This document shows, piece by piece, positions 43,925 through 58,114 of a stretch of 64,000 nucleotides of DNA. The translations under genes were made by a program, and so were the position numbers. Position 1 is the first letter of the stretch. The number at the start of each line of letters is the position of its first letter. The stretch comes from Bacillota bacterium (GTDB lineage: Bacteria > Bacillota > Clostridia > Caldicoprobacterales > DTU083). The notes under the pieces are model-generated. The model did no database searches and was not told the DNA's origin. It saw only the letters and a list, made by a program, of their open reading frames with translations. The DNA lies in the NCBI GenBank assembly GCA_029549985.1, contig JAKPIB010000035.1, positions 29,319-93,318 of the forward strand, written 5' to 3'.

Positions 43925-43979
43925 ACATATGCTTACAGGCGCACCTTATTTAACCACGTGATAACAGGAGGACAAGCAA

Positions 43980-44936
43980 ATGAGCAAATTTACCGTGAAC
44001 AAGACCTTGTTTGAGGGGCTGGCACAATATTTTGATGAAAAAAACAGCATATCTCCCTTTGCACTTCAACCGGATAAGAATTTGTCTTCAGAAGAGATAG
44101 ATTATCTAAAGGAGACCGGCATATTGGGCAATGACGGCAGCATTGTCCGGTCTTTGCATGATATGCTGACAGTGGTAGCCAAGCCAGCCGCCGCAGTGAA
44201 CCTGCTTCTGACTGGCGGAGCCGGCTTGTACAAGCATAGCTTATACTATGACGCCACATACACCAAGTGCATATATGCTACCTATATGACTGATGATATA
44301 GTAGTTACCGACGAAGAGAGCCCGGACAGCTTAATGGATACCATAGCCAAGTTTATTGGAAAAAGCAACTTGAAAAGTCTTGATTTCAACCACGACTTCG
44401 ATATCGAAGAAGCGCTTGTCATAGCAGCGATAATAGACCTTGAAAGAAAGCTTTGCCTAAGAGCATTGATAGATGAAATCCCCTACGACCAAAACCTGTA
44501 CGGCTACAATAAGATTTGGAGGACTATAAACAGCACGAGTTCAAGCATTCAATGGTTTGTACATATCATCAATCAAGTGATAGGAGAGTATACAAACCTA
44601 AGCTACAAGCAAGTGCAGGACGCACTGGAAAGGCTTGTGCCGTTAGGGCTGTTGAGCCAGAAGAACGGCCTGTATCAGTTATCGGATGAACTGGTTTTCC
44701 TGGCCAATAGGATGCTCATCAATGACAACATAGTTTCAGTTTCAGCATTGAAGCAATGGGGCAATGGGATCATATCCTCCGGCTTTACAAGTGTCCAGGC
44801 CGGTATCCATGATATATTGTATCTTGACTACAATGGTGACACCATAAAGTTCAAAACCATGTCCAGCGATGAGCTGTTGGAAAGCATTGACTTTTTCATT
44901 AACAATAAGGAGTATTTCAGCAAATTGACAGCATAA
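43980..44936 (+). CDS. hypothetical protein, no recognisable family
   Basis: 318 aa with RBS AGGAGG 8 nt upstream. Soluble-looking. Possible winged-helix-like segment (YKQVQDALERLVPLGLLSQKNGLYQLSDE). Only 25 nt upstream of pilB. Confidence 0.75.
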   Translation: MSKFTVNKTLFEGLAQYFDEKNSISPFALQPDKNLSSEEIDYLKETGILGNDGSIVRSLHDMLTVVAKPAAAVNLLLTGGAGLYKHSLYYDATYTKCIYATYMTDDIVVTDEESPDSLMDTIAKFIGKSNLKSLDFNHDFDIEEALVIAAIIDLERKLCLRALIDEIPYDQNLYGYNKIWRTINSTSSSIQWFVHIINQVIGEYTNLSYKQVQDALERLVPLGLLSQKNGLYQLSDELVFLANRMLINDNIVSVSALKQWGNGIISSGFTSVQAGIHDILYLDYNGDTIKFKTMSSDELLESIDFFINNKEYFSKLTA

Positions 44937-44961: not shown

Positions 44962-46650
44962 GTGTGGGATACGTCTAGAAAAAGAAAAAAGCTGGGTGAT
45001 TTTCTGCTGGAATCCGGTATCATAGACGAGGTACAGCTGGCAAAGGCCTTGCATATTCAAAAGGAACAGGGCGGACGGCTCGGTACGATCCTGGTGAAAA
45101 ACAACTTCGTAGATGAGCGGCAACTATTAGAGGTATTGGAGTTCCGGCTGGGCATTCCCTTTATAGATCTTCACAATATAGAAATCAGCCCTGATATGCA
45201 GAAGCTGGTTCCATATCAGATTGCTGAAAAATATAAGGTAGTACCGGTCAAAATCGAGAATGGCATGCTGTATGTTGCAATGGAGGACCCACTTGATTTT
45301 ATCGCTATCGAGGACCTCAAACTCGTGGCAAAAATGGAGATCGCTCCTGTATTATCCTATGTTGACTCTATCACTTCAGCGATCAACCAGCTGTACGGCA
45401 GCGAAGAGGCAGACAAGGCCATAAAGGAATTCCAGCAGGAATCCGGGATACAGTCTGCTGAAAGCACGGCAAGTGAGCAGCAGCTTGAGGTTGACAGCGC
45501 ACCAATTGTCAGGCTGGTCCATACTATGATTGAGCAAGCGGTGCTGGAAGGAACCAGCGATATCCACATAGAGCCAATGGAGAACGAGGTGAGGGTCCGT
45601 TACAGGATCGACGGCAAGCTGCAGCTCTTTCAAACCATACCTAAGAATGCTCATTCTGCAGTGATTACTCGTATAAAGATAATGTCGGGTCTGAACATTG
45701 CAGAGAAAAGGATCCCACAGGACGGCAGGTGTGATCTGACGGTCAGGGACAAGCAGCTCAACCTTCGTGTGTCTACACTGCCTACAGTCCATGGAGAAAA
45801 AGTTGTAATCAGGATCCTGGACAAGTCCAACTTCCTGATCCCAAAGGAAAAGCTGGGCTTTACCAAGGAGAACCTTGAGAAATTCGACAGACTGCTTATG
45901 AACCCTCATGGGATAATCCTTATAACAGGCCCGACCGGAAGCGGCAAATCAACGACCCTATATACTATGCTGAGCGAGCTCAACAAGATATCAGAGAACA
46001 TAGTTACAGTAGAGGACCCGGTCGAATACCTGATACCGGGCCTGAATCAGGTGCAGGTCAATGTCAAGGCAGGCCTTACCTTTGCAAGCGCGCTCAGATC
46101 ATTCTTAAGGCAAGACCCTGATATTATCATGCTGGGAGAGATCAGGGATTCGGAGACCGCAGATATAGCTATGAGGGCTGCCATAACCGGCCACCTTGTA
46201 TTGAGCACCTTGCATACCAATGATGCTGTCAGCTCCATATCAAGGCTGATCGATATGGGCATAGAGCCGTTCATGGTTGCCGTATCACTTGTGGGTGTCA
46301 TATCCCAAAGGCTGGTGAGAAAGCTCTGCCCGAGATGTGCAGTGGATTACAAACCGCCAGCCCATGAACTCAAACTGCTGGGAGTGGACAAGGAGGACCA
46401 GGTGTACAAAAAGCCGGTGGGCTGCAGCTACTGCAATAACACAGGCTATAAGGGCAGATTGGCTGTCCACGAGGTCCTGGTCATAAACAATGGCCACAGG
46501 GAAATGATAGCCAAAAATGCCTCAGTAAGCGATCTTACTGAGTATTCAATTAAGACAGGAATGACCACGCTAAAGCAGGAATGCATCAAACTACTTGAAA
46601 ACGGCACTACTTCTGTCAGTGAAGTATTGAGTGTAGCATACTCACAATAA
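44962..46650 (+). CDS. pilB: type IV pilus assembly ATPase PilB (GspE family)
   Basis: N-terminal MshEN/GSPII_E_N domain. Walker A GPTGSGKST, Asp and His boxes, and a tetracysteine CPRC...CSYC. Confidence 0.93.
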   Translation: MWDTSRKRKKLGDFLLESGIIDEVQLAKALHIQKEQGGRLGTILVKNNFVDERQLLEVLEFRLGIPFIDLHNIEISPDMQKLVPYQIAEKYKVVPVKIENGMLYVAMEDPLDFIAIEDLKLVAKMEIAPVLSYVDSITSAINQLYGSEEADKAIKEFQQESGIQSAESTASEQQLEVDSAPIVRLVHTMIEQAVLEGTSDIHIEPMENEVRVRYRIDGKLQLFQTIPKNAHSAVITRIKIMSGLNIAEKRIPQDGRCDLTVRDKQLNLRVSTLPTVHGEKVVIRILDKSNFLIPKEKLGFTKENLEKFDRLLMNPHGIILITGPTGSGKSTTLYTMLSELNKISENIVTVEDPVEYLIPGLNQVQVNVKAGLTFASALRSFLRQDPDIIMLGEIRDSETADIAMRAAITGHLVLSTLHTNDAVSSISRLIDMGIEPFMVAVSLVGVISQRLVRKLCPRCAVDYKPPAHELKLLGVDKEDQVYKKPVGCSYCNNTGYKGRLAVHEVLVINNGHREMIAKNASVSDLTEYSIKTGMTTLKQECIKLLENGTTSVSEVLSVAYSQ

Positions 46651-46670: not shown

Positions 46671-47723
46671 ATGAATCTCTACGAAATACTGAAGACTGCA
46701 TCGGATCTAAAAGCTTCTGACATACACATAACTGTTGGTGTGCCATGTACATACCGGATACACGGCAAGCTCGTACACATAGATGACAAGATCCTCCTGC
46801 CTGATGATACAAAGACGCTCGTCAGGGAGCTGTGCAATGAAGCCCAGTTCGGCCTGCTGACTAAAAAGGGAGAAGTGGACTTTTCATTTTCGATGCCCGG
46901 ACTTCAGCGATTCAGGGTAAATGCCTACAAGCAGCGCAACAGCTATAGCGCTGCCTTGAGGCTTGTAAACTCGAAGATCCCGCCTTTTGAGGAGCTCGGC
47001 CTGCCTTCAGTGGTAAGAGAGCTGACTCACCTCAGCAGGGGGATAATCCTGGTGACAGGGCCTACTGGCAGCGGGAAGTCGACTACCCTGGCCAGCATGA
47101 TAGATTACATCAACAACAACTGGGACAAGCATATTATAACCATCGAGGATCCGATCGAGTATCTGCACAGGCATAAAAAGAGCATCGTTAACCAAAGAGA
47201 GGTCGGCAGTGACACGAAGAGCTTTGCCAATGCCTTGCGCGCAGCCTTGCGCCAGGACCCTGACATCATACTGATAGGCGAGATGAGGGACCTGGAGACC
47301 ATAGCCACAGCGCTTACCGCGGCCGAGACCGGCCACCTTGTGCTTAGCACGCTTCATACGGTGGGTGCTACCAAAACGATCGACAGGATCATTGACGCCT
47401 TTCCGCCCCACCAGCAGCAGCAGGTAAGGGTACAGCTCTCTATGCTGCTGCAAGGCGTTATATCGCAGCAGCTTATTACTAGAAGAGATGGAAAAGGCCG
47501 TGTTGCTGCTGTTGAAACGATGGTTGTCAATGCCGCAATAAGAAATATCATACGCGAGGCAAAGATACACCAGATCAACAATGTCATCCAAACAAGCGCT
47601 AGCAAGGGGATGAAGCTTATGGATGATGCTATTATCGAGCTGTACAATAAGCAGCTGATTTCAAGAGAAGATGCCCTTATGCACTGCGTAGATCCGGAAT
47701 ATATGAGAAAAAGCCTGTTCTAA
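46671..47723 (+). CDS. pilT: type IV pilus retraction ATPase PilT
   Basis: 350 aa. SDIHI motif, Walker A GPTGSGKST, GHLVLSTLHT, and AIRNIIREAK (PilT-specific AIRNLIRE motif). Confidence 0.93.
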   Translation: MNLYEILKTASDLKASDIHITVGVPCTYRIHGKLVHIDDKILLPDDTKTLVRELCNEAQFGLLTKKGEVDFSFSMPGLQRFRVNAYKQRNSYSAALRLVNSKIPPFEELGLPSVVRELTHLSRGIILVTGPTGSGKSTTLASMIDYINNNWDKHIITIEDPIEYLHRHKKSIVNQREVGSDTKSFANALRAALRQDPDIILIGEMRDLETIATALTAAETGHLVLSTLHTVGATKTIDRIIDAFPPHQQQQVRVQLSMLLQGVISQQLITRRDGKGRVAAVETMVVNAAIRNIIREAKIHQINNVIQTSASKGMKLMDDAIIELYNKQLISREDALMHCVDPEYMRKSLF

Positions 47724-47734
47724 TATGAAAGAGG

Positions 47735-48952
47735 GTGGTTATCATTCCTAAGTACCAGTATAAAGCTGTGAATATGTCAGGCAGGGTCATAGAAGGAGTG
47801 TATGAAGCTATAAATAAAGACGCTGTCGTTGACATGATAAGACAGAAAAACTTCTTTCAGCTGGAAATAAAAGAGCTGCCGAGCCAGAAGGACATAAATG
47901 ATCTATCTTTCCTATCGAAGATCGGCAGTAAGGATATTTCACTGTTCTGTAAGCAGTTTGCCGCCATCCTTAGGGCAGGCGTACCTTTGGTACAAGGGCT
48001 CAATATGTTGAGCCAGCAGACAGAGAATAAAAAGCTGAAGAGTATACTTTCAAATATATATGAGGTCGTTCAGAAGGGCAACAGCCTATCCGATGCCATG
48101 CGACTGCATGAGAAAAAGCTGCCTGCCATGCTGATAAACATGATAGAGGCCGGCGAGGTCAGCGGTACTTTGGATGAGACCCTTGAAACGATGGCTGTTC
48201 ATTATGAAAAGGACTATAAGATGAAGGCAAAAGTAAAGGGTGCGATGACATACCCGATCGTTGTCCTTGTTATAGCAATAGCTGTCGTAATATTGATGCT
48301 GACCGCAGTTGTGCCTATGTTCATAGGCCTGTTTGAAAACAGCGGAGCACCGCTGCCCGGTCCGACAAAGCTGCTGATAGGGATGAGCGAAGGCCTCAAG
48401 GCCAACGGACTTGTATACCTGCTCTTTATAGTGATCGCTGGTATTCTTATAAAGATCTATCTTTCAACGGAAAACGGAAAGGCAGTATTCCACAGACTCC
48501 TGTTACAGGCGCCGCTCGTCGGCAAGCTTCAGGTCAAGGTATTCACAGCAAGGCTCGCAAGGACCCTTGGTACCTTGATGAGGACCGGTGTAGACATAAC
48601 CAAATCCATAAACCTGGCATCCAGGACGATATCAAATGTCATCGTCCAAAAAGGATTGTTTGAGGTAGAAGCCCAGGTCAATCAGGGAAAAAGCCTGTAC
48701 GAACCGATCAAGGCCCTTAAGATCTTTCCGGTGATGCTGGAAAACATGGTCATGCTGGGTGAAGAATCCGGTACCCTGGAAGATATGCTTATAAAGACGG
48801 CTGATTTCTATGAGGAAGAAGTGGACAGGGAGATACAAAAGCTGACCTCGCTTATGGAGCCTGCGATAATCGTCGTCCTAGGTGGGATGATCGCCTTCAT
48901 TGTACTTTCCATAATGCTGCCGATGTTCGAAATGATGAAATATGTAGCATAA
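47735..48952 (+). CDS. pilC: type IV pilus platform protein PilC (GspF family)
   Basis: 405 aa. Two T2SF repeats and three TM segments. The start codon (GTG 47735) is uncertain. Confidence 0.92.
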   Translation: MVIIPKYQYKAVNMSGRVIEGVYEAINKDAVVDMIRQKNFFQLEIKELPSQKDINDLSFLSKIGSKDISLFCKQFAAILRAGVPLVQGLNMLSQQTENKKLKSILSNIYEVVQKGNSLSDAMRLHEKKLPAMLINMIEAGEVSGTLDETLETMAVHYEKDYKMKAKVKGAMTYPIVVLVIAIAVVILMLTAVVPMFIGLFENSGAPLPGPTKLLIGMSEGLKANGLVYLLFIVIAGILIKIYLSTENGKAVFHRLLLQAPLVGKLQVKVFTARLARTLGTLMRTGVDITKSINLASRTISNVIVQKGLFEVEAQVNQGKSLYEPIKALKIFPVMLENMVMLGEESGTLEDMLIKTADFYEEEVDREIQKLTSLMEPAIIVVLGGMIAFIVLSIMLPMFEMMKYVA

Positions 48953-49052
48953 ATTATAAAATATTTTGCATGCCTATGCAGGATTTAGCTTCATGAAGTC
49001 GAATATAAAAAATAATATAATTTTACAATATTTTATAGAAGGAGTGTTAAAA

Positions 49053-49430
49053 GTGATAAATAGAAAGAAAAAGAATCAAAAAGGATTTACCTTAGTCGAA
49101 CTCATCGTAGTAATCGCCATATTAGGTATTCTTGCAGCTATCGCTATACCGGCATTCGGAGGATTCACGAAATCAGCCAATATCAGAGCTATCGAATCAG
49201 AGCACAGGATGCTGATCGGCGCCATCCAGATGTGGCAAGCCAACCAGGACAACGTAAGTACATTCCCACCGAACCTGGAAGCGTTAGATGAATATGTAGA
49301 CGGTGGTATTGCTAAAATCGAAGCAAGGATGCAAGCTGATGGTGAAAACAAGGCTCATGATATTACTCCACAAGGAAAACTGATATCCAAGTATGATGAT
49401 GCAAATGTCTGGATCTATCCTAGCCACTAA
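49053..49430 (+). CDS. pilA: major type IV pilin
   Basis: ORF 48966..49430. GTG 49053 follows GAAGGAG. Class III signal MINRKKKNQKG|FTLVELIVVIAILGILAAIAIP with Glu at +5. The mature protein is about 114 aa and has no Cys. Confidence 0.88.
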   Translation: MINRKKKNQKGFTLVELIVVIAILGILAAIAIPAFGGFTKSANIRAIESEHRMLIGAIQMWQANQDNVSTFPPNLEALDEYVDGGIAKIEARMQADGENKAHDITPQGKLISKYDDANVWIYPSH

Positions 49431-49448
49431 AATATTCTAAAAAATATA

Positions 49449-49478
49449 ATAGAGCGAGGAAACTCGCTCTATTCTTTT
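49449..49478 (+). terminator. strong intrinsic terminator after pilA
   Basis: ATAGAGCGAG-gaaa-CTCGCTCTAT (10 bp, GNRA-type loop) followed by TCTTTT. Confidence 0.8.
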
Positions 49479-49506
49479 ATGATTCGAATGCAGGTAATGG
49501 TACGAT

Positions 49507-50763
49507 ATGGGCAAAAATAAAGTCAGTACATTGTTGATAGCAATCATCTGCATAACTCCATTAGTATTCATACCGTTTACTTTATATTTTAAGCAGCTAG
49601 GTATCATCATAGTTGATTTTTTCATGCTGCCCAAGCTGCTGTTTGTGGCTTTATGCGCTTTTATAATACTGATAATGCTGGCATATTGCAAAGATAGCCC
49701 AGAGGCTCCAAAGGAAAAGCTCACAGAATATCTGATGGGGCTCTATTTGCTCCTCGTAGCCGTATCGACAGTACTTTCGATAGATCCGTACCTGTCATTG
49801 GTAGGAGCCATGTTTTACAACGAGGGACTGTTGACGATCCTTTTGTATGCTTTTTTATTTATGGCAGCAAAGCGCTGTTATTCACATGCAGACCGGCATT
49901 CAGCGATGATGACCGCCTTCTCTTCCTTGATAGGCCTATATGGCATGCTGCAATTCCTGGGGTATGATCTGACTATAACTGAAATGACCGGAAAAGTATA
50001 TGCCACTTTCAGAAACCCGAATTACTTTGGAGCTTATCTGGTGTTGATGCTACCTGTGAGTATATTTGCCTACCTGAGGACTTCTAGAAAGATAGTCCTG
50101 CCTGCTGTAGCCATCTTGTATTTCTGTTTACTGTGTACCAATACCAGGGGTTCATGGTTAGGCTTTTTGGTCTCTGTTCTTGTTTTCCTGTATTATTCCA
50201 TTAGACTCAAGTACCAGACCAGAAGACTGTTAACGGTTTTTGCTGTTCTTGCAATGGTTACGGCAGTCTATATCCTGATAGTCAACAGACAGCTGATAGA
50301 ACGCTTTGCTTCAATATTCATAGAGTTCAAAAATGTTGTCACTCTGTCTGAAAACTATGAATCAGGCGGAAGCAAAAGGATATTTATATGGAAATGCGCT
50401 TTGCAGATCATCAGGGAACACCCATTCTTCGGGACCGGACCCGAAACCTTCAGCAAAGTGATATATAGTAGATTCTCACTCCATTTCTTCAAGGCCCATA
50501 ATGAGTACCTCAATATCGCGCAGTCATCAGGGATCCCGGCCCTTATAGTCTATGCTGCCTGGCTGGCTGATGTTATACGCAATGGCATTAAGGGTATCAG
50601 AAAAAACATATACATATTGCCCTATTTGGCAAGCGTGACAGGATATGCCGTCCAGGCCTTTTTCAATGTCAGTATAGTTGCAGTAGCGTATATATTTTGG
50701 ATATTCAGTGGTATTCTTGTAAGCACGGGCACAGACATTAATTCAAAATATAGTAATTATTGA
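49507..50763 (+). CDS. Wzy_C / O-antigen-ligase-family polytopic membrane protein (candidate pilin glycosyltransferase)
   Basis: 418 aa with about 10-12 TM segments. Family-typical blocks NPNYFGAYL, TNTRGSWLGF, and HPFFGTGPETF...KAHNEYLNIAQSSGIPAL. Confidence 0.8.
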   Translation: MGKNKVSTLLIAIICITPLVFIPFTLYFKQLGIIIVDFFMLPKLLFVALCAFIILIMLAYCKDSPEAPKEKLTEYLMGLYLLLVAVSTVLSIDPYLSLVGAMFYNEGLLTILLYAFLFMAAKRCYSHADRHSAMMTAFSSLIGLYGMLQFLGYDLTITEMTGKVYATFRNPNYFGAYLVLMLPVSIFAYLRTSRKIVLPAVAILYFCLLCTNTRGSWLGFLVSVLVFLYYSIRLKYQTRRLLTVFAVLAMVTAVYILIVNRQLIERFASIFIEFKNVVTLSENYESGGSKRIFIWKCALQIIREHPFFGTGPETFSKVIYSRFSLHFFKAHNEYLNIAQSSGIPALIVYAAWLADVIRNGIKGIRKNIYILPYLASVTGYAVQAFFNVSIVAVAYIFWIFSGILVSTGTDINSKYSNY

Positions 50764-50789
50764 CATAGTTCAAATAATTAGTCTATAAT
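50760..50789 (+). promoter_or_regulatory. consensus sigma-A promoter ahead of the minor-pilin genes
   Basis: TTGACA (overlaps the ligase TGA), 18 nt spacer, TATAAT. Leaves a leader of roughly 110-125 nt. Confidence 0.6.
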
Positions 50790-50902: not shown

Positions 50903-51418
50903 GTGAGGTTTTTATTGTTTTATATGTATAGGTGTTGTAAAATCATATCGAAAAGCAAAAATGGCTTTACTTTGCTGGAGTTGTTGATCGTTATTACTGT
51001 TATCGGTATACTTGCATCACTGGCCATACCTAATATAATCAAAATCGCGGATGATTACAGGCTTAATGAAGCGGCCAAGGAGATTGCCAGAGAGATAATA
51101 AACACCCAGCAGTTAGCGATGTACTATGGAATAGATATGCAATTTGAGATAGACATCTATAATAATCAGTATTCGGTCAGGACCAGGGGTACCCCTTCAA
51201 AGCTGTTTAAAAGAGGACAATTGGATAGAAGTATGACTATTGCCACCAATCTCTACAATCCTGGTTACAGTGGGAGCTATAAAGGGATACGTACCCTATA
51301 CTATTCGCCGAGCGGGATGCCGTCCAGAACCGGAACGATTTGGTTATATAGCGAAACAGGCGGCTATAAAAGGATTACTATAGCTGTCGGTACCGGAAGG
51401 GTGAAAATATGGGACTGA
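50903..51418 (+). CDS. minor pilin, GspH/FimT-like
   Basis: Prepilin signal ..SKSKNG|FTLLELLIVITVIGILASLAIP. Start could be GTG 50903, TTG 50915 or ATG 50924. C terminus is GspH-like (TIWLYSE..ITIAVGTGRV). Confidence 0.8.
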   Translation: MRFLLFYMYRCCKIISKSKNGFTLLELLIVITVIGILASLAIPNIIKIADDYRLNEAAKEIAREIINTQQLAMYYGIDMQFEIDIYNNQYSVRTRGTPSKLFKRGQLDRSMTIATNLYNPGYSGSYKGIRTLYYSPSGMPSRTGTIWLYSETGGYKRITIAVGTGRVKIWD

Positions 51419-52233
51419 AACGCTTAAGTGTTCTAAAGGATGACAAGGCCGGGTCTATTCTGCTGGAAGTAGTAATATCACTGATTTTGATTTCCTTGCT
51501 GGCTTTAACATTCATGTCCATGTACGTTTTCGCCTCGCGGGTGAATGCCAGATCGCAGAGAGTAACAGATACCACATATGCTGCCCAGAATATGTTGGAA
51601 GAGCTGTACAGCCTGAGCGTGAACCAGTCCTTCGATGAATCACTCAATGAACTCAGAAGTATAATCTCCTCATGCCAAGTTACCCAGGAATCGCCAGATC
51701 TTTACAAGGTCACCGGGGAATATGGCAAATACGGTGTAGAGATAACCTTGCAAAAAATCAGAGACAACATGTACAACTCCATAGTCAAGGCTTATACTCT
51801 GTCTTCGAGTCTCCATCAGGAGACGACGATGCAAAACCTCTTCATCTGGAATACAGAGGCCGATAGCGGCGAAGATGAAAATGAAAACGGCGGAGACACA
51901 GGGGGCGGAGATACAGGTGATGAAGAGGATGAGGATGAAGGAGACGAGGATGATAACGGACCCGAACAAGAATTAAAAATAGTTGACATTAAACGGATAG
52001 ATACCTATGAACAAGGCAATAAAGTCAGGTTCAATATAAGAATATACCTGAGCAACGGTGCTGAGCATGATCATAACAACAAGCAGGAGTTCGAGTTCAA
52101 GAAAAACCAGAACAAAACTGAATACACACAAGGCACTATACAACTTGGCTCAGGCTATATAGATTACGAAATAAAGATAATAGTGAAAAATGGTTCGATA
52201 GATCTTGAATTAGTTCATCAGACTTCGCGCTAA
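51409..52233 (+). CDS. minor pilin-like protein with polyacidic linker and extra C-terminal domain
   Basis: Signal MGLKRLSVLKDDKAG|SILLEVVISLILISLLALTF with Glu at +5. Acidic tract EADSGEDENENGGDTGGGDTGDEEDEDEGDEDDNGPEQ, followed by about 90 aa of beta-rich sequence. Confidence 0.7.
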   Translation: MGLKRLSVLKDDKAGSILLEVVISLILISLLALTFMSMYVFASRVNARSQRVTDTTYAAQNMLEELYSLSVNQSFDESLNELRSIISSCQVTQESPDLYKVTGEYGKYGVEITLQKIRDNMYNSIVKAYTLSSSLHQETTMQNLFIWNTEADSGEDENENGGDTGGGDTGDEEDEDEGDEDDNGPEQELKIVDIKRIDTYEQGNKVRFNIRIYLSNGAEHDHNNKQEFEFKKNQNKTEYTQGTIQLGSGYIDYEIKIIVKNGSIDLELVHQTSR

Positions 52234-52251
52234 AAGCGAGGTGAAATAATC

Positions 52252-52725
52252 ATGTATAGAACATGTAGAATTAATAAGCATAAAAAAGGCATGACCTTAG
52301 TTGAATTAGTGGTCGGTTTGGCAGTGCTGTCCCTGGCCACTGCTTTGTTATATATGATTTACGCTACCGGTCTTAAGCAATTCAACAGCGAATCTGCCAC
52401 GATTGACAACCAGTATAACATAAGGCAGGCTATGAGCTATATCGGAAGAGAAATCAGGCGGGCTGACCTGATCAGAGTCGCCAACAATCAGCTTGAGCTC
52501 ACTTATCTGGATGTAAATAACAATGTAGAGGAGATTACTTACTACTACCTCTCAGACAATACGATCTACAAAAGGAGCAATGGTGTTGCAAATCCGCTGG
52601 TTGAGGGCATTACAGAGTTTACTTACACTATCGACGGCAAGAACATTAAGCTTGTAATAACGAGTCTGCCAAACGCTATGGGCAAGGATATTTCTGTTAC
52701 TTCAATTATCAGAATAAGGGAGTAG
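52252..52725 (+). CDS. minor pilin (PilW/ComGF-like)
   Basis: Signal MYRTCRINKHKKG|MTLVELVVGLAVLSLATALL. Confidence 0.75.
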   Translation: MYRTCRINKHKKGMTLVELVVGLAVLSLATALLYMIYATGLKQFNSESATIDNQYNIRQAMSYIGREIRRADLIRVANNQLELTYLDVNNNVEEITYYYLSDNTIYKRSNGVANPLVEGITEFTYTIDGKNIKLVITSLPNAMGKDISVTSIIRIRE

Positions 52726-52732
52726 TGATACT

Positions 52733-54214
52733 ATGGTAAAAAAAATTGTAAAGCCTGAGCGAGGCTCGATTTTCATTATTACCCTGATGGTTCTGGTAGT
52801 GATGTCGATTTTAGGCACAGCTATATTAGGCTACACGCTGTCTAACAATAAAATGAGCATTCACGACAGTAATTTCCAATCTGCATATTACATTGCAGAA
52901 ACCGGGGTCAAATATGTGACCAATAAAGTTGTAGAAAACATAGTCAATGTCTATGATACATCAAATGATAAGAATGAGTTTTTTTCCAAAGTAGAACAAC
53001 TGATAAACCAAAGCATAAGCAGCTATGGGACAGGCTCCTTTGATATGATCAGAGGAATACAGCCTGTTTCAAACGTAAGATTGGATCAGAAAATAGATGC
53101 CGGCAACGGCAAGGTTATTTACATCCTTTCAGCTACAGGAAGTATTGGGGGCATAACAAGAGGCGTACAGCAAAAACTTGAGGTGATTTATCCGCAGCTG
53201 CTATCTATACAGGCTGATATGGCTGTATTTGCCGAAGATAACATAGAGCTGTCAGGAGGGGCACAGATAAATGGCCCTGTTGGCAGCAACTCAAATACAG
53301 TCGGCACTATAAAGCTAGACGGTGGATCCAACATAAACGGTGATTGTTATGTTCCTGCTCCCGCCTCTCCGGATGCAGTAAGTGTACCTTCATGGATGAC
53401 CAAGCCCAATGTACATAGCATTCCAAGAAGGCAGTACACAATGCCTTACTTCCCTGAGTTCCCTACATATGTTAAGCTGGATGCGCTCAAGGTCAGCTCC
53501 GAACACCTTATAGATCTGTCAGGAAATCTGCGCTCATTTTCCAACTCCTGCCCCGACAACTATGTACTTGAGATTACCAGAGATGCATATATACCTGATG
53601 TATATATCCGCGATAAGACTCTCACGATCAGAGCTGACGATGATATAGAGCTGGTGATCGACAATATAAAGATAGAAGGCGGCGGGCATTTAAACCTTAT
53701 CGGCAACGGCAAGGTCACCATGTATATTAGGAACAGGATGGATTTCCTGAACGGTACTAAAGTAAACAAGCCCGGTGATCTATGGGGCACTCCTACAGCA
53801 GAGCAAAGAAGCAAGACAATCGAGAAGCTTACGGTTTATTATGAAGGGACTTATCCCATAAGCATAGGAGGAGATGTTGAAATATATGGATCTTTATATG
53901 CAAAAACAGCGGACATCACTTTGACTCAGGGCGGAGGCTTTCAGGGTCATATAATGACAGGCAGTACCGGGACATTAAGGATCAATGGTGGCGCTGTTGC
54001 TCTTGTAAGGGTGATATATGCACCTTATGCAGATATCATAATGGAGCAAGGCGGCAATGTCAAAGGCGCTATCATCGGTAAAAGCCTGAAAGCGACAGGC
54101 GGAACCGTAATTACATATGTGTCACAGTATCCGGATGTACCTTTTCTGCCCGGTGAGACAGAGTCAGACCATATAGTGACAAAGGTAAGTCCCATAAGGG
54201 AAAAGCGAAACTAA
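52733..54214 (+). CDS. large PilX-N-type minor pilin / putative tip protein
   Basis: 493 aa. N terminus KPERG|SIFIITLMVLVVMSILGTAILG lacks Glu at +5, as in PilX. The C-terminal half carries repeated Gly-rich beta-strand-like units. Confidence 0.7.
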   Translation: MVKKIVKPERGSIFIITLMVLVVMSILGTAILGYTLSNNKMSIHDSNFQSAYYIAETGVKYVTNKVVENIVNVYDTSNDKNEFFSKVEQLINQSISSYGTGSFDMIRGIQPVSNVRLDQKIDAGNGKVIYILSATGSIGGITRGVQQKLEVIYPQLLSIQADMAVFAEDNIELSGGAQINGPVGSNSNTVGTIKLDGGSNINGDCYVPAPASPDAVSVPSWMTKPNVHSIPRRQYTMPYFPEFPTYVKLDALKVSSEHLIDLSGNLRSFSNSCPDNYVLEITRDAYIPDVYIRDKTLTIRADDDIELVIDNIKIEGGGHLNLIGNGKVTMYIRNRMDFLNGTKVNKPGDLWGTPTAEQRSKTIEKLTVYYEGTYPISIGGDVEIYGSLYAKTADITLTQGGGFQGHIMTGSTGTLRINGGAVALVRVIYAPYADIIMEQGGNVKGAIIGKSLKATGGTVITYVSQYPDVPFLPGETESDHIVTKVSPIREKRN

Positions 54215-54235
54215 TGATTGGAGAGAGTGGAAAGT

Positions 54236-55318
54236 ATGAAAGGGAATAAGGAAAAGCAATCAGCCGCAAAAAATCCAACTGATATGTACAAGCCGCTCAA
54301 ACCTATAATCGGAATAGATGTTGGAGCCAACCAGGTAAAGATCGTGCAAATGAAAGGCAACGGAAAAATAAAAAGCTTTGGCATCGGGAATGTCCCTGAG
54401 GGATTGATCAACCAGGGAAAGGTAGAAGCACCAGAGCCTTTCGCAGCAATGATAAAGCAGGTCATGAAAAAAAGCAATATAAAAGGAAAGAACTGTGCTC
54501 TATGCTTGTCCAATACTGATGTCATAATCAGGGAGCAGAGGCTGCCTCTGATGTCAGACAAGCAGATAAGAGACAATATTATGCACAGCATCACTACCGT
54601 ATTACCCTTGGCTCCGTCAGAGTACTCAATAAATTACAGGTTGATAGAGACTATTACGACAGAAGACGGCAGGCAGGAATTAAGGCTTATGGTAGTAGCG
54701 GTACCCATCAGTCTGGTCAGGTCGTATATTAAGGCCTTAAGAAAAGCCGGTTTGAACGTAAAATACATAGATGTATCTGCAAATGCAAAAGAAAAGCTGT
54801 TCAACTATGTTGCAAAAACCAGAGGAATAACAAATAAAAGAAACCTATGCCTGATCGACTTTGGAGCCAGCAAGACTGATATGATGATCCTGAGAAATGG
54901 AAGGTATTTTTTGCATACGACATTTAGCAGCGGATTGAACAACCTGAATGCTATCATTGCAGAAATATTCGAAACGGACTTATTTGCTGCTGAGGAATAC
55001 AAGAAAAAGATAAACTTCTTCAACGACTCTGAAAACACCTATCCTCAGGTACTCAACTTCTTTGACTATTTATTTGTTGATATCGAACGGGCTATTGAGT
55101 TCTACAAGAACCGCAATAGCCAGGATGATCTGGACGGAATATATATTTCAGGAGGTGGCAGCCTGCTGCAGGGATTACGAGATTACATGGAAGAGCAGCT
55201 GGGCATTTCAGTGCACCTGATGTCAGACCTGCTGGATGTGTATGCTGGCAGAAGACAGAAAGAACAACTGGCATTCTTCTCTGACGCTATCGGGGTTACC
55301 TTGAGGAGGGAGTGGTAA
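54236..55318 (+). CDS. pilM: type IV pilus assembly protein PilM (actin-like ATPase)
   Basis: ORF 54218..55318. ATG 54236 lies 8 nt after GGAGAGAG. IGIDVGANQVKIV phosphate-1 motif and a later ISGGGS motif. Confidence 0.9.
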   Translation: MKGNKEKQSAAKNPTDMYKPLKPIIGIDVGANQVKIVQMKGNGKIKSFGIGNVPEGLINQGKVEAPEPFAAMIKQVMKKSNIKGKNCALCLSNTDVIIREQRLPLMSDKQIRDNIMHSITTVLPLAPSEYSINYRLIETITTEDGRQELRLMVVAVPISLVRSYIKALRKAGLNVKYIDVSANAKEKLFNYVAKTRGITNKRNLCLIDFGASKTDMMILRNGRYFLHTTFSSGLNNLNAIIAEIFETDLFAAEEYKKKINFFNDSENTYPQVLNFFDYLFVDIERAIEFYKNRNSQDDLDGIYISGGGSLLQGLRDYMEEQLGISVHLMSDLLDVYAGRRQKEQLAFFSDAIGVTLRREW

Positions 55319-55320
55319 TC

Positions 55321-55890
55321 ATGAACTATGACATAAATCTTTTACCTAAAAGTGATAAAGGACTGTCAGGGTTTGACATGTTTCTGATCGTCCTTATTAT
55401 ATTTGCCATTATTCTGGCAGCTGCCTATGCCGGTTTCTACCTTCCGCTAAGCAATAAAGCCAGATTAAGCAAGGAGATCGCCAACAAGGAAAAAGAACTC
55501 GAAAGACTGAACGAGCAACTGGTCGAGTATACAGACCTGGTCAATCTGGTAAGCGATTTGGAAGCCAAGTTCGATATTATAAAAGCCTTACAGAAAGATT
55601 ACTTTAGGACATCGCTTTTTCTATCATACTTAGAGCAATCGTTACCAGATGAAATAGTATTGAAAAGCGTCGATATAGACGGGAAAAATGCAGGTATAAA
55701 TGGCATCTCCCCCAACCTGAACCTGATAGCGCAGTTCATAGTGAACCTGAGAAACCATGAGAATATTTCAGATGTAATCTTTACTGAAGCCAGGCTGAGC
55801 GAAAGTGAAGGCAACTATGGGTTTAAATTATCAATCGTAATAGCAGATATTCAGTCTGGTGAAAACGAAGAGGGGGCTGATGCAGAATGA
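55321..55890 (+). CDS. pilN: type IV pilus assembly protein PilN
   Basis: ORF 55312..55890 with ATG 55321. N terminus MNYDINLLPK, a single TM segment, then a coiled coil. Confidence 0.82.
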   Translation: MNYDINLLPKSDKGLSGFDMFLIVLIIFAIILAAAYAGFYLPLSNKARLSKEIANKEKELERLNEQLVEYTDLVNLVSDLEAKFDIIKALQKDYFRTSLFLSYLEQSLPDEIVLKSVDIDGKNAGINGISPNLNLIAQFIVNLRNHENISDVIFTEARLSESEGNYGFKLSIVIADIQSGENEEGADAE

Positions 55891-56486
55891 AATTATCCAA
55901 AAGAGAGCTTGGCTTGCTTGTCCTGTTGTTGGTTTTTGCAGTCGGTGCGTTATATTACACCCAGTTTTATACCCCGATGAGCAAGCAGCTTACAGATCTG
56001 GCATCGAAGTCCCAGAACCTGACTATACAGATTACCGATGCAAAATCAAGGATAAGCAAGATACCGGACGTAGAATCACAGATAAATGAGCTGGAAAATG
56101 AGTTCGACAACCTGAAAGAGAAATTTCTTGACGGATGGGACGAACCTGTTCTGATGGTGTATCTGGAGGACCTGATTGGAGATTTGGCTGAGAAAACCAC
56201 GATATATTTTGACAGGAACTCACCTGATAAGCTTTATAATAGCGGAACCATCAGAATCTCGTTGAATACCAGCTACCAGAATTTTAAGAGTGTTATATCC
56301 AAACTTGAAAACGGACTGCTTTACAATGTTCCTTCATCGGTAAGCCTCGACTACTCAGATGATAGTGATAAAAGCTTAAAGGCAGACCTGATTCTCAAAT
56401 TCTACACTCTTAACGAGCCTGATCCCTTCAAGGATGACTATGAGTTTATGAAAGGACAGTATGGGAAAGAGAATATTTTCAGGTAA
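55887..56486 (+). CDS. pilO: type IV pilus assembly protein PilO
   Basis: ATGA overlap with pilN. N-terminal TM segment plus coiled coil. Position after pilMN. Confidence 0.7.
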   Translation: MKLSKRELGLLVLLLVFAVGALYYTQFYTPMSKQLTDLASKSQNLTIQITDAKSRISKIPDVESQINELENEFDNLKEKFLDGWDEPVLMVYLEDLIGDLAEKTTIYFDRNSPDKLYNSGTIRISLNTSYQNFKSVISKLENGLLYNVPSSVSLDYSDDSDKSLKADLILKFYTLNEPDPFKDDYEFMKGQYGKENIFR

Positions 56487-56516: not shown

Positions 56517-57356
56517 ATGGATATTTCGCCCTTGACGAAGATAGTAGGGGTCATTGGACACCCGATAGGACATAGCCTGTCTCCCAGGCTTCACAACAAC
56601 TTTTACAAAAAGCTGAAGCTTGATATAGCATACCTGGCTTTTGACGTCAAGCCGGCCGAGCTGGAAAAGGCTGTACGAGGGATGGCTGCTCTCGGTTTCA
56701 TAGGTTTCAATGTGACAATACCCCACAAGGAATCCATGCTGAACCTGGTTGATGAAGTGGAACCAGGCGCACAGCTGGTAGGAGCGATCAATACCGTCAA
56801 GATAGCTGACGGAAAGCTGATAGGCCACAACACCGATGGCCAGGGCTTTATGGAGTCCCTTAAGCGAAATGATGTAAACATACGGGACAGACATATAGTA
56901 GTCCTTGGAGCCGGAGGCGCTGCAAGGGCTGTAAGTATTGCTGTAGCAGCTGATGGTCCGAAAAGGATGACTATCGTCAACAGGACCTTTGAGCGGGGAA
57001 GGCATCTGGCATTTTCAATAAACGATAAAATAGGCAAAAGGCTTGCGAAGGCAGCATCAGAAATACCCCGTGATGCCGATATTATAATAAATACCACTTC
57101 CCTTGGCATGTGGCCTGATGTCCATGCCAGTCCTATTACCGGATACAGCTTAAGGGCAGATACTGTAGTATGTGATATAGTGTACAACCCTAGAAAGACC
57201 TTGATGCTGAAGCAGGCTGAAGCCATGGGCTGCAAAACTGTAGACGGCATTGGTATGCTGATCGGCCAGGCTTTGCGCTCAATAGAGATATGGACGGATA
57301 CAAAGCTTGACAGCGGAGCATGGAATACGATGCAGGAGGAAATAGAGCATATATGA
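56517..57356 (+). CDS. aroE: shikimate dehydrogenase
   Basis: GVIGHPIGHSLSPRLHN, NVTIPHK, NTDG and GAGGAARA motifs. Confidence 0.93.
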   Translation: MDISPLTKIVGVIGHPIGHSLSPRLHNNFYKKLKLDIAYLAFDVKPAELEKAVRGMAALGFIGFNVTIPHKESMLNLVDEVEPGAQLVGAINTVKIADGKLIGHNTDGQGFMESLKRNDVNIRDRHIVVLGAGGAARAVSIAVAADGPKRMTIVNRTFERGRHLAFSINDKIGKRLAKAASEIPRDADIIINTTSLGMWPDVHASPITGYSLRADTVVCDIVYNPRKTLMLKQAEAMGCKTVDGIGMLIGQALRSIEIWTDTKLDSGAWNTMQEEIEHI

Positions 57357-58114
57357 TAGGAGCCTTGGTATTTTTGCTGGGATTGTTCATTGGAAGCTTT
57401 TTCAATGTATGCATCTACCGTATCCCATATGAACGATCCATAGTATTCCCGCCGTCCCACTGCCCATCCTGCAGTCACAGACTTGGAACCTTGGATCTTA
57501 TCCCAGTTTTCAGTTATTTGCTTTTAAAGGGCAAATGCCGTTATTGCGGCAGCAGGATCTCGGTACAGTACCCGCTGATAGAGCTCTTGACCGGGGGAGT
57601 TTTTCTTTACTTATATTTGCATTTTGGCCTGACCTGGCAGCTGTTGACAAGCATAGTTCTGGTATCCCTGCTATTGATCATGACAGTCATTGATATCAAG
57701 CATATGATAATACCAGATGAGCTTGTTGCTTTCGGTATTGTTTCAGCGTTCATATTCCAGATAGCCGGGATTTCCCAGATCGGATACTTAAGTGCCATTT
57801 ACGGAACCCTGCTTGGCGGCGGAGTGTTTTTGCTCATAGCCCTGTTTTCAATGCTGGTGCTGAAGAAAGAAGGTATGGGCGGCGGTGATATCAAGCTTAT
57901 GGCTATGATAGGGGCGCTGACAGGGTGGAAAGCGACTCTGCTGTCAATGGTGCTATCGGTCTATTTAGGAGGCTTGTTGGGTGGTATTTTACTACTTTTA
58001 AAGGTAAAAAGGCGAGGCGATTACATACCCTATGGGCCATTTATAGCTATGGCAGCGGTGATATCCCTTTTATGGGGAGATAATATCATAAGCTGGTGGC
58101 TGGCCTTATTCTAG
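57353..58114 (+). CDS. pilD: prepilin peptidase / N-methyltransferase (A24 family)
   Basis: ORF 57320..58114. ATG 57353 overlaps the aroE TGA. N-terminal CPSC...CRYC motif, polytopic, catalytic-Asp motif GGGDIKL. Confidence 0.92.
   Translation: MIGALVFLLGLFIGSFFNVCIYRIPYERSIVFPPSHCPSCSHRLGTLDLIPVFSYLLLKGKCRYCGSRISVQYPLIELLTGGVFLYLYLHFGLTWQLLTSIVLVSLLLIMTVIDIKHMIIPDELVAFGIVSAFIFQIAGISQIGYLSAIYGTLLGGGVFLLIALFSMLVLKKEGMGGGDIKLMAMIGALTGWKATLLSMVLSVYLGGLLGGILLLLKVKRRGDYIPYGPFIAMAAVISLLWGDNIISWWLALF

What the first reader, a model, noticed from the sequence alone, without database searches (positions are those of the whole stretch)
49053..50763. Wzy_C/O-antigen-ligase-like gene immediately downstream of the major pilin: possible pilin O-glycosylation in a Gram-positive T4P
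The 418-aa polytopic protein has O-antigen-ligase family blocks (TNTRGSWLGF and HPFFGTGPETF...KAHNEYLNIAQSSGIPAL). It sits directly after pilA. This mirrors the pilA-tfpO(pilO) arrangement of Pseudomonas aeruginosa group I pilins and is functionally analogous to Neisseria PglL. In P. aeruginosa 1244 the glycan is attached to the C-terminal Ser of pilin. The pilin here ends ...VWIYPSH, with a penultimate Ser. A Firmicute has no O-antigen to ligate, so a protein-directed oligosaccharyltransferase is a reasonable reading. I am not aware of this being well characterised for clostridial-type pili.
Basis: partly seen in the sequence, partly recalled or inferred. Interest (0 to 1): 0.6.

Follow-up and report, generated by a model that had tools for sequence, protein, structure and literature searches.

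The report
Pilin-linked glycan transferase in a Clostridium relative
A membrane enzyme of the O-antigen-ligase family sits right after the main pilus-subunit gene of a Gram-positive anaerobe, and relatives recur beside pilin genes of two pilus types, so it most likely attaches sugars to pilins, which has not been described in Gram-positive bacteria.

Summary
A prepilin gene (49053-49430) is followed by a terminator hairpin and then a 418-aa Wzy_C protein (49507-50763). Both lie inside a secretin-less type IV pilus cluster of a Caldicoprobacterales-like Clostridium relative. The protein has the WaaL fold and keeps the Arg/Arg/Arg/His active-site set.

The interpretation as a pilin O-oligosaccharyltransferase is supported by comparative genomics but has no experimental proof.
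- Of 63 homolog loci with enough flank, 39-40 lie next to type IV filament genes. About 30 are T4aP-type, 13 of them pilin-adjacent, and 9 are Tad/Flp.
- The gene sits at several different positions within pilus operons.
- Pilin plus Wzy_C pairs also occur alone beside mobile-element genes.
- Only 2 of 50 related PilC-anchored clusters with enough downstream flank carry it (3 of 80 overall), so it is an accessory module.
- No glycan-synthesis genes lie nearby, which argues against a polymerase.

The proposed acceptor, the penultimate Ser, is not secure. Penultimate Ser/Thr is enriched in cognate pilins family-wide (23/38 against 10/50). In the window's own clade, however, that residue is S, A, A, K or S, and the invariant feature is a C-terminal His.

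Metatranscriptomes suggest pilA is highly expressed and the Wzy_C gene is expressed at machinery level. I rate it a new variant of a known kind, with moderately high interest.

The parts
44962..46650 (+). PilB-type extension ATPase
   Evidence: Pfam T2SSE E 2.7e-137 plus MshEN
46671..47723 (+). PilT-type retraction ATPase
   Evidence: Pfam T2SSE E 1e-48. A member of the same 90% cluster is named PilT by NCBI.
47735..48952 (+). PilC platform protein
   Evidence: Pfam T2SSF, two repeats, E 3e-61
49053..49430 (+). Major prepilin PilA. It is 125 aa, is cleaved after Gly11, and ends ...VWIYPSH.
   Evidence: N_methyl E 7.9e-12. It is the first pilin after pilC. Its metatranscriptome contig depth is 100-167, against 2-17 for neighbouring genes. 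The C-terminal half (49251-49414) is hypervariable between strains.
49448..49473 (+). Intrinsic-terminator-like hairpin between pilA and the Wzy_C gene, a likely attenuator
   Evidence: 11-bp stem followed by a T-rich tail. Free energy is -17.1 kcal/mol, z = -4.4. A hairpin of different sequence with a T-run sits at the same place in L082. RNA contig depth drops about 10-fold here, but one RNA contig reads through.
49507..50763 (+). Wzy_C / WaaL-fold membrane glycosyltransferase, the putative pilin O-oligosaccharyltransferase (418 aa)
   Evidence: PF04932 E 3.4e-24. The AF2 model has pLDDT 90. The top PDB fold match is WaaL 7tpg, TM-score 0.62. R214, R291 and H331 are invariant and R266 is >=90% conserved; they align to WaaL R191, R265, H313 and R242.
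50760..50789 (+). Consensus sigma-70-type promoter-like site (TTGACA-18-TATAAT) overlapping the Wzy_C stop codon, ahead of the minor-pilin genes
   Evidence: 12 of 12 match. Function was not tested.
50903..51418 (+). Minor pilin (GspH/ComGD-like)
   Evidence: N_methyl E 5.2e-8; weak ComGD and GspH matches
51409..52233 (+). Pilin-like protein with a poly-acidic insert (weakly PilV-like)
   Evidence: TIGR02523 E 0.0022 only. The hydrophobic N-terminus is seen in the translation.
52252..52725 (+). Minor pilin (ComGF-like)
   Evidence: ComGF E 5.6e-8 and N_methyl
52733..54214 (+). PilX-like large minor pilin, a candidate tip adhesin
   Evidence: PilX_N, DUF7305 and a weak ice-binding-like adhesive domain
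54218..55318 (+). PilM
   Evidence: PilM_2 E 2.3e-36
55312..55890 (+). PilN
   Evidence: PilN E 3.5e-9
55887..56486 (+). PilO-like protein, assigned by position only
   Evidence: No significant Pfam family. The position after pilN and the N-terminal hydrophobic segment support the assignment.
57320..58114 (+). Prepilin peptidase PilD
   Evidence: A24_N_bact E 2e-36 plus Peptidase_A24

Best explanation
The 418-aa protein is an active WaaL-fold (Wzy_C, GT-C_B) transferase. It takes a pre-assembled glycan carried on undecaprenyl pyrophosphate at the outer face of the cytoplasmic membrane and transfers it en bloc onto a hydroxyl group of a type IV pilin. The most likely target is the major pilin encoded immediately upstream, modified before or as it enters the pilus.

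The glycan is made elsewhere in the genome, for example as a cell-wall polymer, capsule or S-layer glycan precursor. The enzyme is an accessory module of the pilus locus. It is transcribed at machinery level by read-through of an attenuating terminator behind the very highly expressed pilA.

Shown here: the family, fold, conserved active-site residues, gene order, recurrent linkage to pilin genes, and in-situ transcription.
Inferred: the donor, the protein acceptor, and the act of glycosylation itself.
The acceptor residue is unknown. The penultimate Ser is only one candidate, and not a well-conserved one.
For: 1. Enzyme identity and integrity.
- Wzy_C matches at E 3.4e-24.
- The AF2 model has pLDDT 90 and pTM 0.91, with 12 transmembrane helices and a large outer loop.
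- The best and only significant PDB fold match is WaaL 7tpg (E 8.5e-7, TM-score 0.62).
- A profile search of the PDB finds only 7tpg. It aligns R214, R266, R291 and H331 to WaaL R191, R242, R265 and H313.
- R214, R291, H331, N332 and E333 are invariant in 48 homologs, and R266 is >=90% conserved.
- In the O-OTase PglS, the equivalent Arg residues are proposed to bind the Und-PP pyrophosphate. The equivalent His is the proposed catalytic base, and its H324A variant is used there as the inactive control (PMC12800693).

2. Linkage to pilins.
- Of 63 homolog loci with at least 4 kb of flank, 13 have a pilin gene directly adjacent, 18 were scored as lying in or beside T4aP clusters, and 9 lie beside Tad/Flp clusters. 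One of the 18 (L073) rests on a spurious 47-aa motif hit, so the true total is 39-40.
- A rough background for a random gene is 3% or less (binomial p about 1e-44).
- The order PilB-PilT-PilC-PilA-Wzy_C recurs in L081, L082, L004, L014, L015 and L058.
- Other positions also occur: pilD-Wzy-pilB in Clostridium magnum, and pilin-Wzy-pilM in Haloimpatiens.
- The Tad association includes Flp-TadE-TadG-RcpC-TadZ-TadA-TadB-TadC next to Wzy_C in L085.

3. Pilin plus Wzy_C occur as a stand-alone pair.
- L083 carries the pair between integrase, Rep_trans and SSB genes.
- L166 and L167 carry it beside a transposase, with no pilC upstream.

4. Not a polymerase context. The window has no glycosyltransferase, flippase or chain-length gene; its genes are housekeeping.

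5. Cognate pilin tails.
- Penultimate Ser/Thr: 23/38 against 10/50 controls (p = 1.4e-4).
- [ST]P at the C-terminus: 11/38 against 3/50.
- These tails occur in both T4a and Flp pilins.

6. Expression.
- The gene is covered in five metatranscriptomes at depth 3-16, against 100-167 for pilA.
- One RNA contig runs from pilC through pilA into the Wzy_C gene (48359-49769).

7. Precedents.
- The pilin-adjacent O-OTases TfpO and TfpM are 420-470 aa and lack PglL_A and Wzy_C_2 domains (PMC9829042, PMC12645811).
- Wzy_C-type S-layer O-OTases WsaB and WsfB exist in Gram-positives (PMC2943079).
Against: - No biochemical data exist. Nothing shows a glycan on this or any related pilin.
- The acceptor is undefined. 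No Ser or Thr of the globular domain is invariant in the window's clade, and the penultimate residue varies (S, A, A, K, S).
- 23 of 63 well-flanked homolog loci have no pilus genes nearby. Examples are Proteiniclasticum, Erysipelotrichaceae, and Caloramator between alaS and mnmA. The family is therefore not obligatorily pilin-linked.
- Only 2 of 50 related PilC-anchored clusters with at least 2 kb downstream carry the gene (3 of 80 overall).
- No donor pathway is visible in the 64 kb.
- The transcript evidence comes from assembled contigs, which can contain DNA and give poor depth estimates.
- The enrichment statistics are not corrected for shared ancestry.
Confidence: 0.6

Rival explanations
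1. The enzyme is a general O-oligosaccharyltransferase, PglL-like in role. It glycosylates several exported proteins. The pilins, major or minor, are just one substrate or are not the main one.
For: About a third of well-flanked family members (23 of 63) sit in housekeeping contexts with no pilus genes. This resembles PglL genes that are unlinked to their substrates (PMC3643930). No acceptor residue is conserved in the window-clade pilins.
Against: The protein is small (418 aa) and lacks the PglL_A and Wzy_C_2 domains and the C-terminal periplasmic domain of general O-OTases (PMC9829042). The tight, repeated pilin adjacency and the two-gene pilin plus enzyme pairs argue for a dedicated substrate.
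Confidence: 0.15
2. The enzyme is a polymerase or ligase for a surface glycopolymer, such as a secondary cell-wall polymer, EPS or lipoglycan. That polymer would be needed around or together with the pilus. No protein is glycosylated.
For: Wzy_C also covers Wzy polymerases and ligases, and neither fold nor motifs separate these activities. Orphan homologs exist. A few homologs lie near sugar-nucleotide or glycosyltransferase-like genes, for example the L018 and L077 neighbourhoods. This is read from ORF translations and was not verified.
Against: Polymerases normally sit among glycosyltransferase, flippase and chain-length genes, and none is present here. This reading does not explain the linkage to two unrelated pilin classes, the isolated pilin plus enzyme pairs on mobile elements, or the tail enrichment in cognate pilins.
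Confidence: 0.15
3. The protein is a catalytically irrelevant passenger, or a structural membrane partner of the pilus machinery. The gene neighbourhood carries no functional meaning.
For: About 95% of related T4P clusters work without it.
Against: The active-site Arg/Arg/His set and the HNE motif are invariant across sequences as little as 28% identical to the window protein. The linkage recurs in many lineages and operon positions. The gene is near-identical across strains whose pilA varies. It is covered in five metatranscriptomes.
Confidence: 0.05

Closest known systems
TfpO (PilO) of Pseudomonas aeruginosa group I strains and Acinetobacter
   Same: It is a Wzy_C-family membrane enzyme encoded immediately downstream of the major pilin gene in the same orientation. 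It is small, lacks PglL_A and Wzy_C_2 domains, and is an accessory module present in only some pilus loci (PMC9829042, PMC12645811).
   Different: The host here is monoderm, with no O-antigen. Known TfpO pilins end in Ser or Thr, and added residues block glycosylation (PMC9829042). This pilin ends in His, and family-wide the favoured Ser/Thr is penultimate. The only curated family hits are generic: Wzy_C, and a sub-threshold IctB match.
TfpM of Moraxellaceae
   Same: The size is similar (420-440 aa against 418 aa here). It is pilin-adjacent and recognises a short C-terminal tail (PMC9829042).
   Different: TfpM targets a C-terminal Thr of a pilin-like protein in Gram-negative Moraxellaceae. 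Here the terminal residue is His, and the hosts are Clostridia and Bacilli.
PglL / PglS general O-oligosaccharyltransferases (Neisseria, Acinetobacter)
   Same: The superfamily and presumed chemistry are shared: an Und-PP-glycan donor, Arg residues binding the pyrophosphate, and a catalytic His (PMC12800693). PglL-type genes are often next to pilins: 21 of 31 in PMC3643930.
   Different: There is no PglL_A domain (0 of 48 members) and no Wzy_C_2 domain (1 of 48 at E 0.29). The protein is about 150-200 aa shorter and has no C-terminal periplasmic domain.
WaaL O-antigen ligase (Cupriavidus metallidurans, PDB 7TPG)
   Same: It is the best structural and sequence match in the PDB, and the active-site residues are conserved.
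   Different: Identity is only 15%. The host is a Clostridium relative without lipid A-core, and the gene lies in a pilus operon rather than an LPS core cluster.
WsaB / WsfB S-layer protein O-oligosaccharyltransferases of Geobacillus and Paenibacillus
   Same: They are Gram-positive, Wzy_C-containing, protein-directed transferases (PMC2943079).
   Different: They are encoded in S-layer glycan (slg) loci with glycan-synthesis genes, they target S-layer proteins, and they are linked to a TPR motif or partner (WsfB carries one; WsaB relies on the neighbouring WsaA). None of these applies here.

Membership tests
Wzy_C / WaaL-fold (GT-C_B) superfamily | Pfam PF04932 match above the gathering score | tested here: met
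   85.8 bits against 31.7, E 3.4e-24. All 48 aligned homologs match.
Wzy_C / WaaL-fold (GT-C_B) superfamily | Polytopic fold with a large extracytoplasmic loop resembling WaaL | tested here: met
   The AF2 model has pLDDT 90. Foldseek's top hit is 7tpg_B, E 8.5e-7, TM-score 0.62/0.64.
Wzy_C / WaaL-fold (GT-C_B) superfamily | Conserved Arg residues and a catalytic His in the outer loop | tested here: met
   R214, R266, R291 and H331 align to WaaL R191, R242, R265 and H313. R214, R291 and H331 are invariant and R266 is >=90% conserved in alignment A1.
WaaL O-antigen ligase in the strict sense | Diderm host with a lipid A-core acceptor, and a gene in an LPS core or O-antigen context | tested here: not met
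   The host is a Caldicoprobacterales-like Clostridium relative. The pilus cluster has no secretin. The neighbours are pilus and housekeeping genes.
TfpO/PilO pilin-specific O-OTase | Gene immediately downstream of the major pilin gene on the same strand | tested here: met
   pilA at 49053-49430 is followed by the Wzy_C gene at 49507-50763. The same order is seen in L081, L082, L004, L014, L015, L058, L002, L134 and L170.
TfpO/PilO pilin-specific O-OTase | The cognate pilin ends in Ser or Thr, which is the acceptor | tested here: not met
   The pilin ends ...PSH. Terminal Ser/Thr occurs in 3/38 cognate pilins against 2/50 controls.
TfpO/PilO pilin-specific O-OTase | Sequence orthology to characterised TfpO proteins | not tested
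No curated NCBIfam model other than a sub-threshold IctB hit matched.
TfpO/PilO pilin-specific O-OTase | The pilin carries an enzyme-dependent glycan | not testable with these tools
   This needs mass spectrometry or genetics.
PglL / PglS general O-OTases | PglL_A (PF15864) and Wzy_C_2 (PF11846) domains flanking Wzy_C, and a length of about 550-600 aa | tested here: not met
   PglL_A was found in 0 of 48 members and Wzy_C_2 in 1 of 48 at E 0.29. The protein is 418 aa.
Wzy-type glycan polymerase | Encoded within a glycan-synthesis cluster with a flippase, glycosyltransferases and a chain-length regulator | tested here: not met
   No such gene is present in the 64-kb window.
IctB family (TIGR00947) | Score above the equivalog cut-off | tested here: not met
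   73.7 bits against a cut-off of 366.4. The 'bicarbonate transporter' names on homologs are annotation carry-over.
Type IV major pilin (the upstream gene) | Class III signal peptide with G|F...E5 and a hydrophobic alpha-1 helix; the most abundant pilin of the locus | tested here: met
   N_methyl and IV_pilin_GFxxxE match. The best PDB sequence match is S. sanguinis PilE1. RNA contig depth is 100-167, against 17 or less for the other pilus genes.

The most novel reading that the evidence does not exclude
This is a founding member of a large, undescribed class of O-oligosaccharyltransferases in monoderm bacteria. The family has about 5,400 cluster representatives at 50% identity with E <= 1e-30. 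Under this reading:
- The class glycosylates both T4a-type and Flp/Tad pilins.
- In many lineages it uses a short C-terminal [Ser/Thr]-X-COOH tail, often -TP, as the sequon. The window's clade instead uses a tail ending in His.
- It travels with its pilin as a mobile two-gene cassette.
Probability: 0.3. Interest if true: 0.75.

Novelty: new variant of a known kind. Interest (0 to 1): 0.6.

Why it matters
Pilin glycosylation shapes pilus surface chemistry, aggregation, phage and predator recognition, and immune recognition. So far, pilin-directed O-OTases have been characterised only in Gram-negative bacteria: TfpO, TfpM, PglL and PglS.

Reviews of monoderm type IV pili do not mention glycosylation at all. 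A dedicated enzyme family linked to both T4aP and Tad pilins in Clostridia, Bacilli and relatives would add a missing layer to Gram-positive pilus biology. Many of these organisms are gut or digester species.

Small O-OTases that recognise short terminal tags are also sought for making bioconjugate vaccines, so a new and diverse pool of such enzymes has practical value. The hypothesis can be tested directly, because cultured carriers were identified.

Tried and rejected
- Single-sequence AF2 model of the pilin. I wanted to see whether the tail and candidate Ser residues are exposed. The model was unusable (pLDDT 52).
- Direct comparison with TfpO and TfpM. No sequences could be obtained, and the TfpM paper has no supplementary files held as text.
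- Search for a glycan pathway in the window. Four Pfam batches found only housekeeping genes.
- The 'bicarbonate transporter IctB' annotation on homologs. Rejected, because the score is far below the equivalog cut-off.
- The 'Candidatus Atribacteria' label on a near-identical MAG contig. Rejected as host taxonomy, because Ffh relatives and gene order are Clostridia/Caldicoprobacterales.
- The penultimate Ser as a conserved acceptor. Rejected for the window's clade.
- The hormogonium-polysaccharide pseudopilin (HpsC) hits on the minor pilins. They are weak, generic N-terminal similarity.
- Look-up of the Caloramator protein P0020 found no contig. Its locus L016 was read instead and shows no pilus genes.
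- Literature searches for Gram-positive pilin glycosylation or TfpO in Bacillota returned nothing relevant.
Full report
**What is there**

On the + strand the window carries a complete type IV pilus locus:
- PilB (44962-46650), PilT (46671-47723) and PilC (47735-48952);
- a prepilin (49053-49430);
- a 418-aa polytopic protein (49507-50763);
- three minor pilins and a PilX-like protein (50903-54214);
- PilM, PilN and a PilO-like protein (54218-56486);
- aroE, then the prepilin peptidase PilD (57320-58114).
These assignments rest.

The prepilin has a canonical class III signal (KNQKG|FTLVELIVV) and ends ...VWIYPSH. The 418-aa protein contains both quoted motifs and matches Pfam Wzy_C at E 3.4e-24. 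The finding's coordinates and description are exact.

The locus has no secretin gene. The rest of the window is housekeeping, in a gene order typical of Bacillota: priA-def-fmt-rsmB-rlmN-PP2C-PASTA kinase-rsgA-rpe, then smc-ftsY-ffh-rimM-trmD. Ffh is 73-82% identical to proteins of Caldicoprobacterales MAGs and Caldicoprobacter guelmensis. The host is therefore a Clostridium relative, found in anaerobic digesters, wastewater and manure. One near-identical MAG contig is labelled 'Candidatus Atribacteria'. I regard that label as wrong.

**The enzyme**

An AlphaFold2 model built on 48 homologs is confident (pLDDT 90, pTM 0.91). It shows about 12 membrane helices and a large helical loop between them. 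Its only significant fold match in the PDB is the O-antigen ligase WaaL (7tpg, E 8.5e-7, TM-score 0.62). The SEDS polymerase FtsW follows far behind.

A profile search of PDB sequences likewise finds only 7tpg. It aligns the window's R214, R266, R291 and H331 with WaaL R191, R242, R265 and H313. R214, R291 and the H331-N332-E333 motif are invariant in the 48-sequence alignment, whose members are as little as 28% identical to the window protein. R266 is at least 90% conserved.

In the related O-OTase PglS, the equivalent arginines are thought to hold the undecaprenyl-pyrophosphate. The equivalent histidine is the proposed catalytic base, and its H324A variant serves as the inactive control (PMC12800693). 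The protein is therefore very probably an active Und-PP-glycan transferase. Fold and motifs cannot say what the acceptor is.

**Context is the discriminating evidence**

I collected 80 loci from species-representative genomes with a profile of the family, plus loci for the closest metagenomic homologs. I scanned their neighbourhoods by BLAST against the window's pilus proteins and a Tad set, and by prepilin and Flp motifs.

Of 63 Wzy_C genes with at least 4 kb of flank on both sides:
- 13 have a pilin gene directly adjacent;
- 18 were scored as lying in or beside a T4aP cluster (one of these, L073, rests on a spurious 47-aa motif hit);
- 9 lie beside a Tad/Flp cluster;
- 23 have no pilus genes nearby.
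A random gene would be expected within 10 kb of such clusters about 1-3% of the time (my estimate). The observed 39-40 of 63 is far beyond that.

The association is spread over the whole family tree. It occurs at different operon positions:
- after pilA, in the window, L081, L082, L004, L014, L015 and L058;
- between pilD and pilB, in Clostridium magnum;
- between the pilin gene and pilM, in Haloimpatiens;
- upstream of pilB, in several Clostridium species.
It also spans two mechanistically related but non-orthologous pilus systems. In L085 the gene abuts Flp-TadE-TadG-RcpC-TadZ-TadA-TadB-TadC.

The pilin plus Wzy_C pair also occurs without any machinery genes. In L083 it lies inside an integrase/Rep_trans/SSB element. 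In L166 and L167, which carry the window protein's closest full-length homolog at 50% identity, it lies next to a transposase. A two-gene unit that moves together is what one expects of an enzyme and its substrate.

Conversely, among 80 metagenomic loci anchored on PilC relatives, only three carry a Wzy_C gene, and only 2 of the 50 with at least 2 kb downstream. The gene is thus an accessory module, as tfpO is in Pseudomonas. No glycosyltransferase, flippase or chain-length gene is near it. That argues against a polymerase role.

**The acceptor question**

Across the family there is a real signal at that position. Cognate pilins are those adjacent to the enzyme, or the first pilin after pilC in clusters that contain it, plus Flp pilins of linked Tad loci.
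- Ser or Thr at the penultimate position: 23 of 38 cognate pilins against 10 of 50 control major pilins from Wzy_C-less clusters (Fisher p = 1.4e-4).
- -[ST]P termini: 11/38 against 3/50.
- Terminal Ser/Thr is not enriched: 3/38 against 2/50.
The -TP and -SP endings appear on both T4a pilins and Flp pilins, which suggests convergence. These counts are not corrected for shared ancestry.

In the window's own clade the residue is not conserved:
- window ...YPSH;
- a strain allele ...TYPSH;
- L170 ...KFSH;
- L082 ...YPAH (pilin 67% identical, enzyme intact);
- L081 ...GAAH;
- L166 ...YPKH.
What is invariant there is the C-terminal His, seen in 6/38 cognate pilins against 0/50 controls. No Ser or Thr of the globular domain is invariant. 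The Ser of LIS[KE]YD / VVSQHD is shared by four of six sequences.

The acceptor therefore cannot be assigned. The TfpO-style 'C-terminal Ser' membership criterion is not met.

**Expression**

Contigs from five anaerobic-digester metatranscriptomes cover the region. In four of them pilA has depth 100-167, while the Wzy_C gene has 3-16 and pilC 2-17. The high-depth contigs end at 49422-49444, at the stop codon and hairpin. In one run a single contig spans 48359-49769, that is pilC, pilA and the start of the Wzy_C gene.

The hairpin at 49448-49473 is stable (-17.1 kcal/mol, z = -4.4). A hairpin of different sequence with a T-run occupies the same position in L082. This fits a major pilin whose transcript is mostly terminated, with read-through supplying the enzyme. 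Contig depth is a crude measure, and DNA carry-over cannot be excluded.

The same data show that the C-terminal half of pilA (49251-49414) differs by about 25 substitutions and two codon deletions between strains. The flanking pilC and Wzy_C sequences are nearly identical. That pattern is typical of an exposed major pilin.

**Comparison with known systems**

Functionally the closest analogues are the pilin-adjacent O-OTases TfpO and TfpM. They are 420-470 aa, have no PglL_A or Wzy_C_2 domain, and recognise the C-terminal tail (PMC9829042, PMC12645811).

The window protein and its 47 aligned relatives match only Wzy_C in Pfam. It is therefore not of the PglL/PglS class. It is not a WaaL in the strict sense, because the host is a monoderm and the gene is in a pilus operon. 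It is not in a polymerase context.

Gram-positive Wzy_C-type protein O-OTases are known for S-layer proteins (WsaB and WsfB, PMC2943079). Those sit in glycan loci. I could not compare sequences directly with TfpO or TfpM.

Full-text searches found no report linking Wzy_C enzymes or glycosylation to Gram-positive type IV or Tad pilins. Two key surveys of monoderm pili do not contain the string 'glycos'. Subscription-only literature was not searched.

**Verdict**

The general interpretation is the best available one (confidence about 0.6). The specific acceptor proposal is weak.

The finding is a new variant of a known kind of system. The family is large: about 5,400 representatives at E <= 1e-30. 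Its dual T4aP/Tad linkage and cassette-like mobility make it a worthwhile experimental target, and cultured carriers are available.

Noticed in passing
window 49251-49414: The C-terminal half of pilA is hypervariable between strains in public metagenomes and metatranscriptomes: about 25 substitutions plus two codon deletions in one allele, and a different 3' end in another run. The pilC and Wzy_C flanks are near-identical.
   Followed up: partly
window 49425-49427; L081, L082, L166, L170, L103: All pilins of the window's clade end in His. C-terminal His occurs in 6/38 Wzy_C-linked pilins against 0/50 controls. Its role is unexplained; it could be a recognition tail or a metal ligand.
   Followed up: partly
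L085 8299-10266; also L010, L030, L031, L033, L045, L056, L070: Wzy_C homologs sit beside Tad/Flp pilus loci of Sedimentibacter and relatives. The Flp pilins there end in -TTP, -VTP, -MSP or -MTF.
   Followed up: partly
L083 7510-9302; L166 825-2575; L167 960-2710: Pilin plus Wzy_C two-gene pairs occur without pilus machinery. They lie next to integrase, Rep_trans and SSB genes or a transposase, suggesting a mobile cassette.
   Followed up: partly
L048 8657-11260; L068; L074; protein P0121: Tandem double Wzy_C proteins of about 867 aa, with two Wzy_C domains in one chain, are found in or near the T4P regions of Clostridium zeae, C. manihotivorum and C. folliculivorans.
   Followed up: partly
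window 50760-50789: A perfect TTGACA-18-TATAAT promoter consensus overlaps the Wzy_C stop codon, ahead of the minor-pilin genes.
   Followed up: no
window 49043-49045: In two RT-PCR metatranscriptome libraries, the high-depth pilA contigs begin here directly after adaptor sequence. This may mark a defined RNA 5' end inside the Shine-Dalgarno region.
   Followed up: no
window 41894-44936: A response regulator with a roughly 530-aa acidic, low-complexity C-terminal extension lies directly upstream of pilB, together with a 318-aa protein that matches no family. The 318-aa protein is also present upstream of pilB in L082.
   Followed up: no
window 51409-52233 and 52733-54214: A pilin-like protein carries a poly-acidic Gly/Asp/Glu insert. 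A 493-aa PilX-like protein has DUF7305 and a weak ice-binding-like adhesive domain, making it a possible tip adhesin.
   Followed up: no
window-wide; protein cluster of window 46671-47723: A near-identical PilT on a 187,910-bp NCBI MAG contig is labelled 'Candidatus Atribacteria bacterium'. Ffh similarity and gene order place the organism in Clostridia (Caldicoprobacterales), so the label is probably a mis-assignment.
   Followed up: yes
window 56517-57356: The shikimate dehydrogenase gene aroE is inserted between the pilMNO genes and pilD.
   Followed up: no
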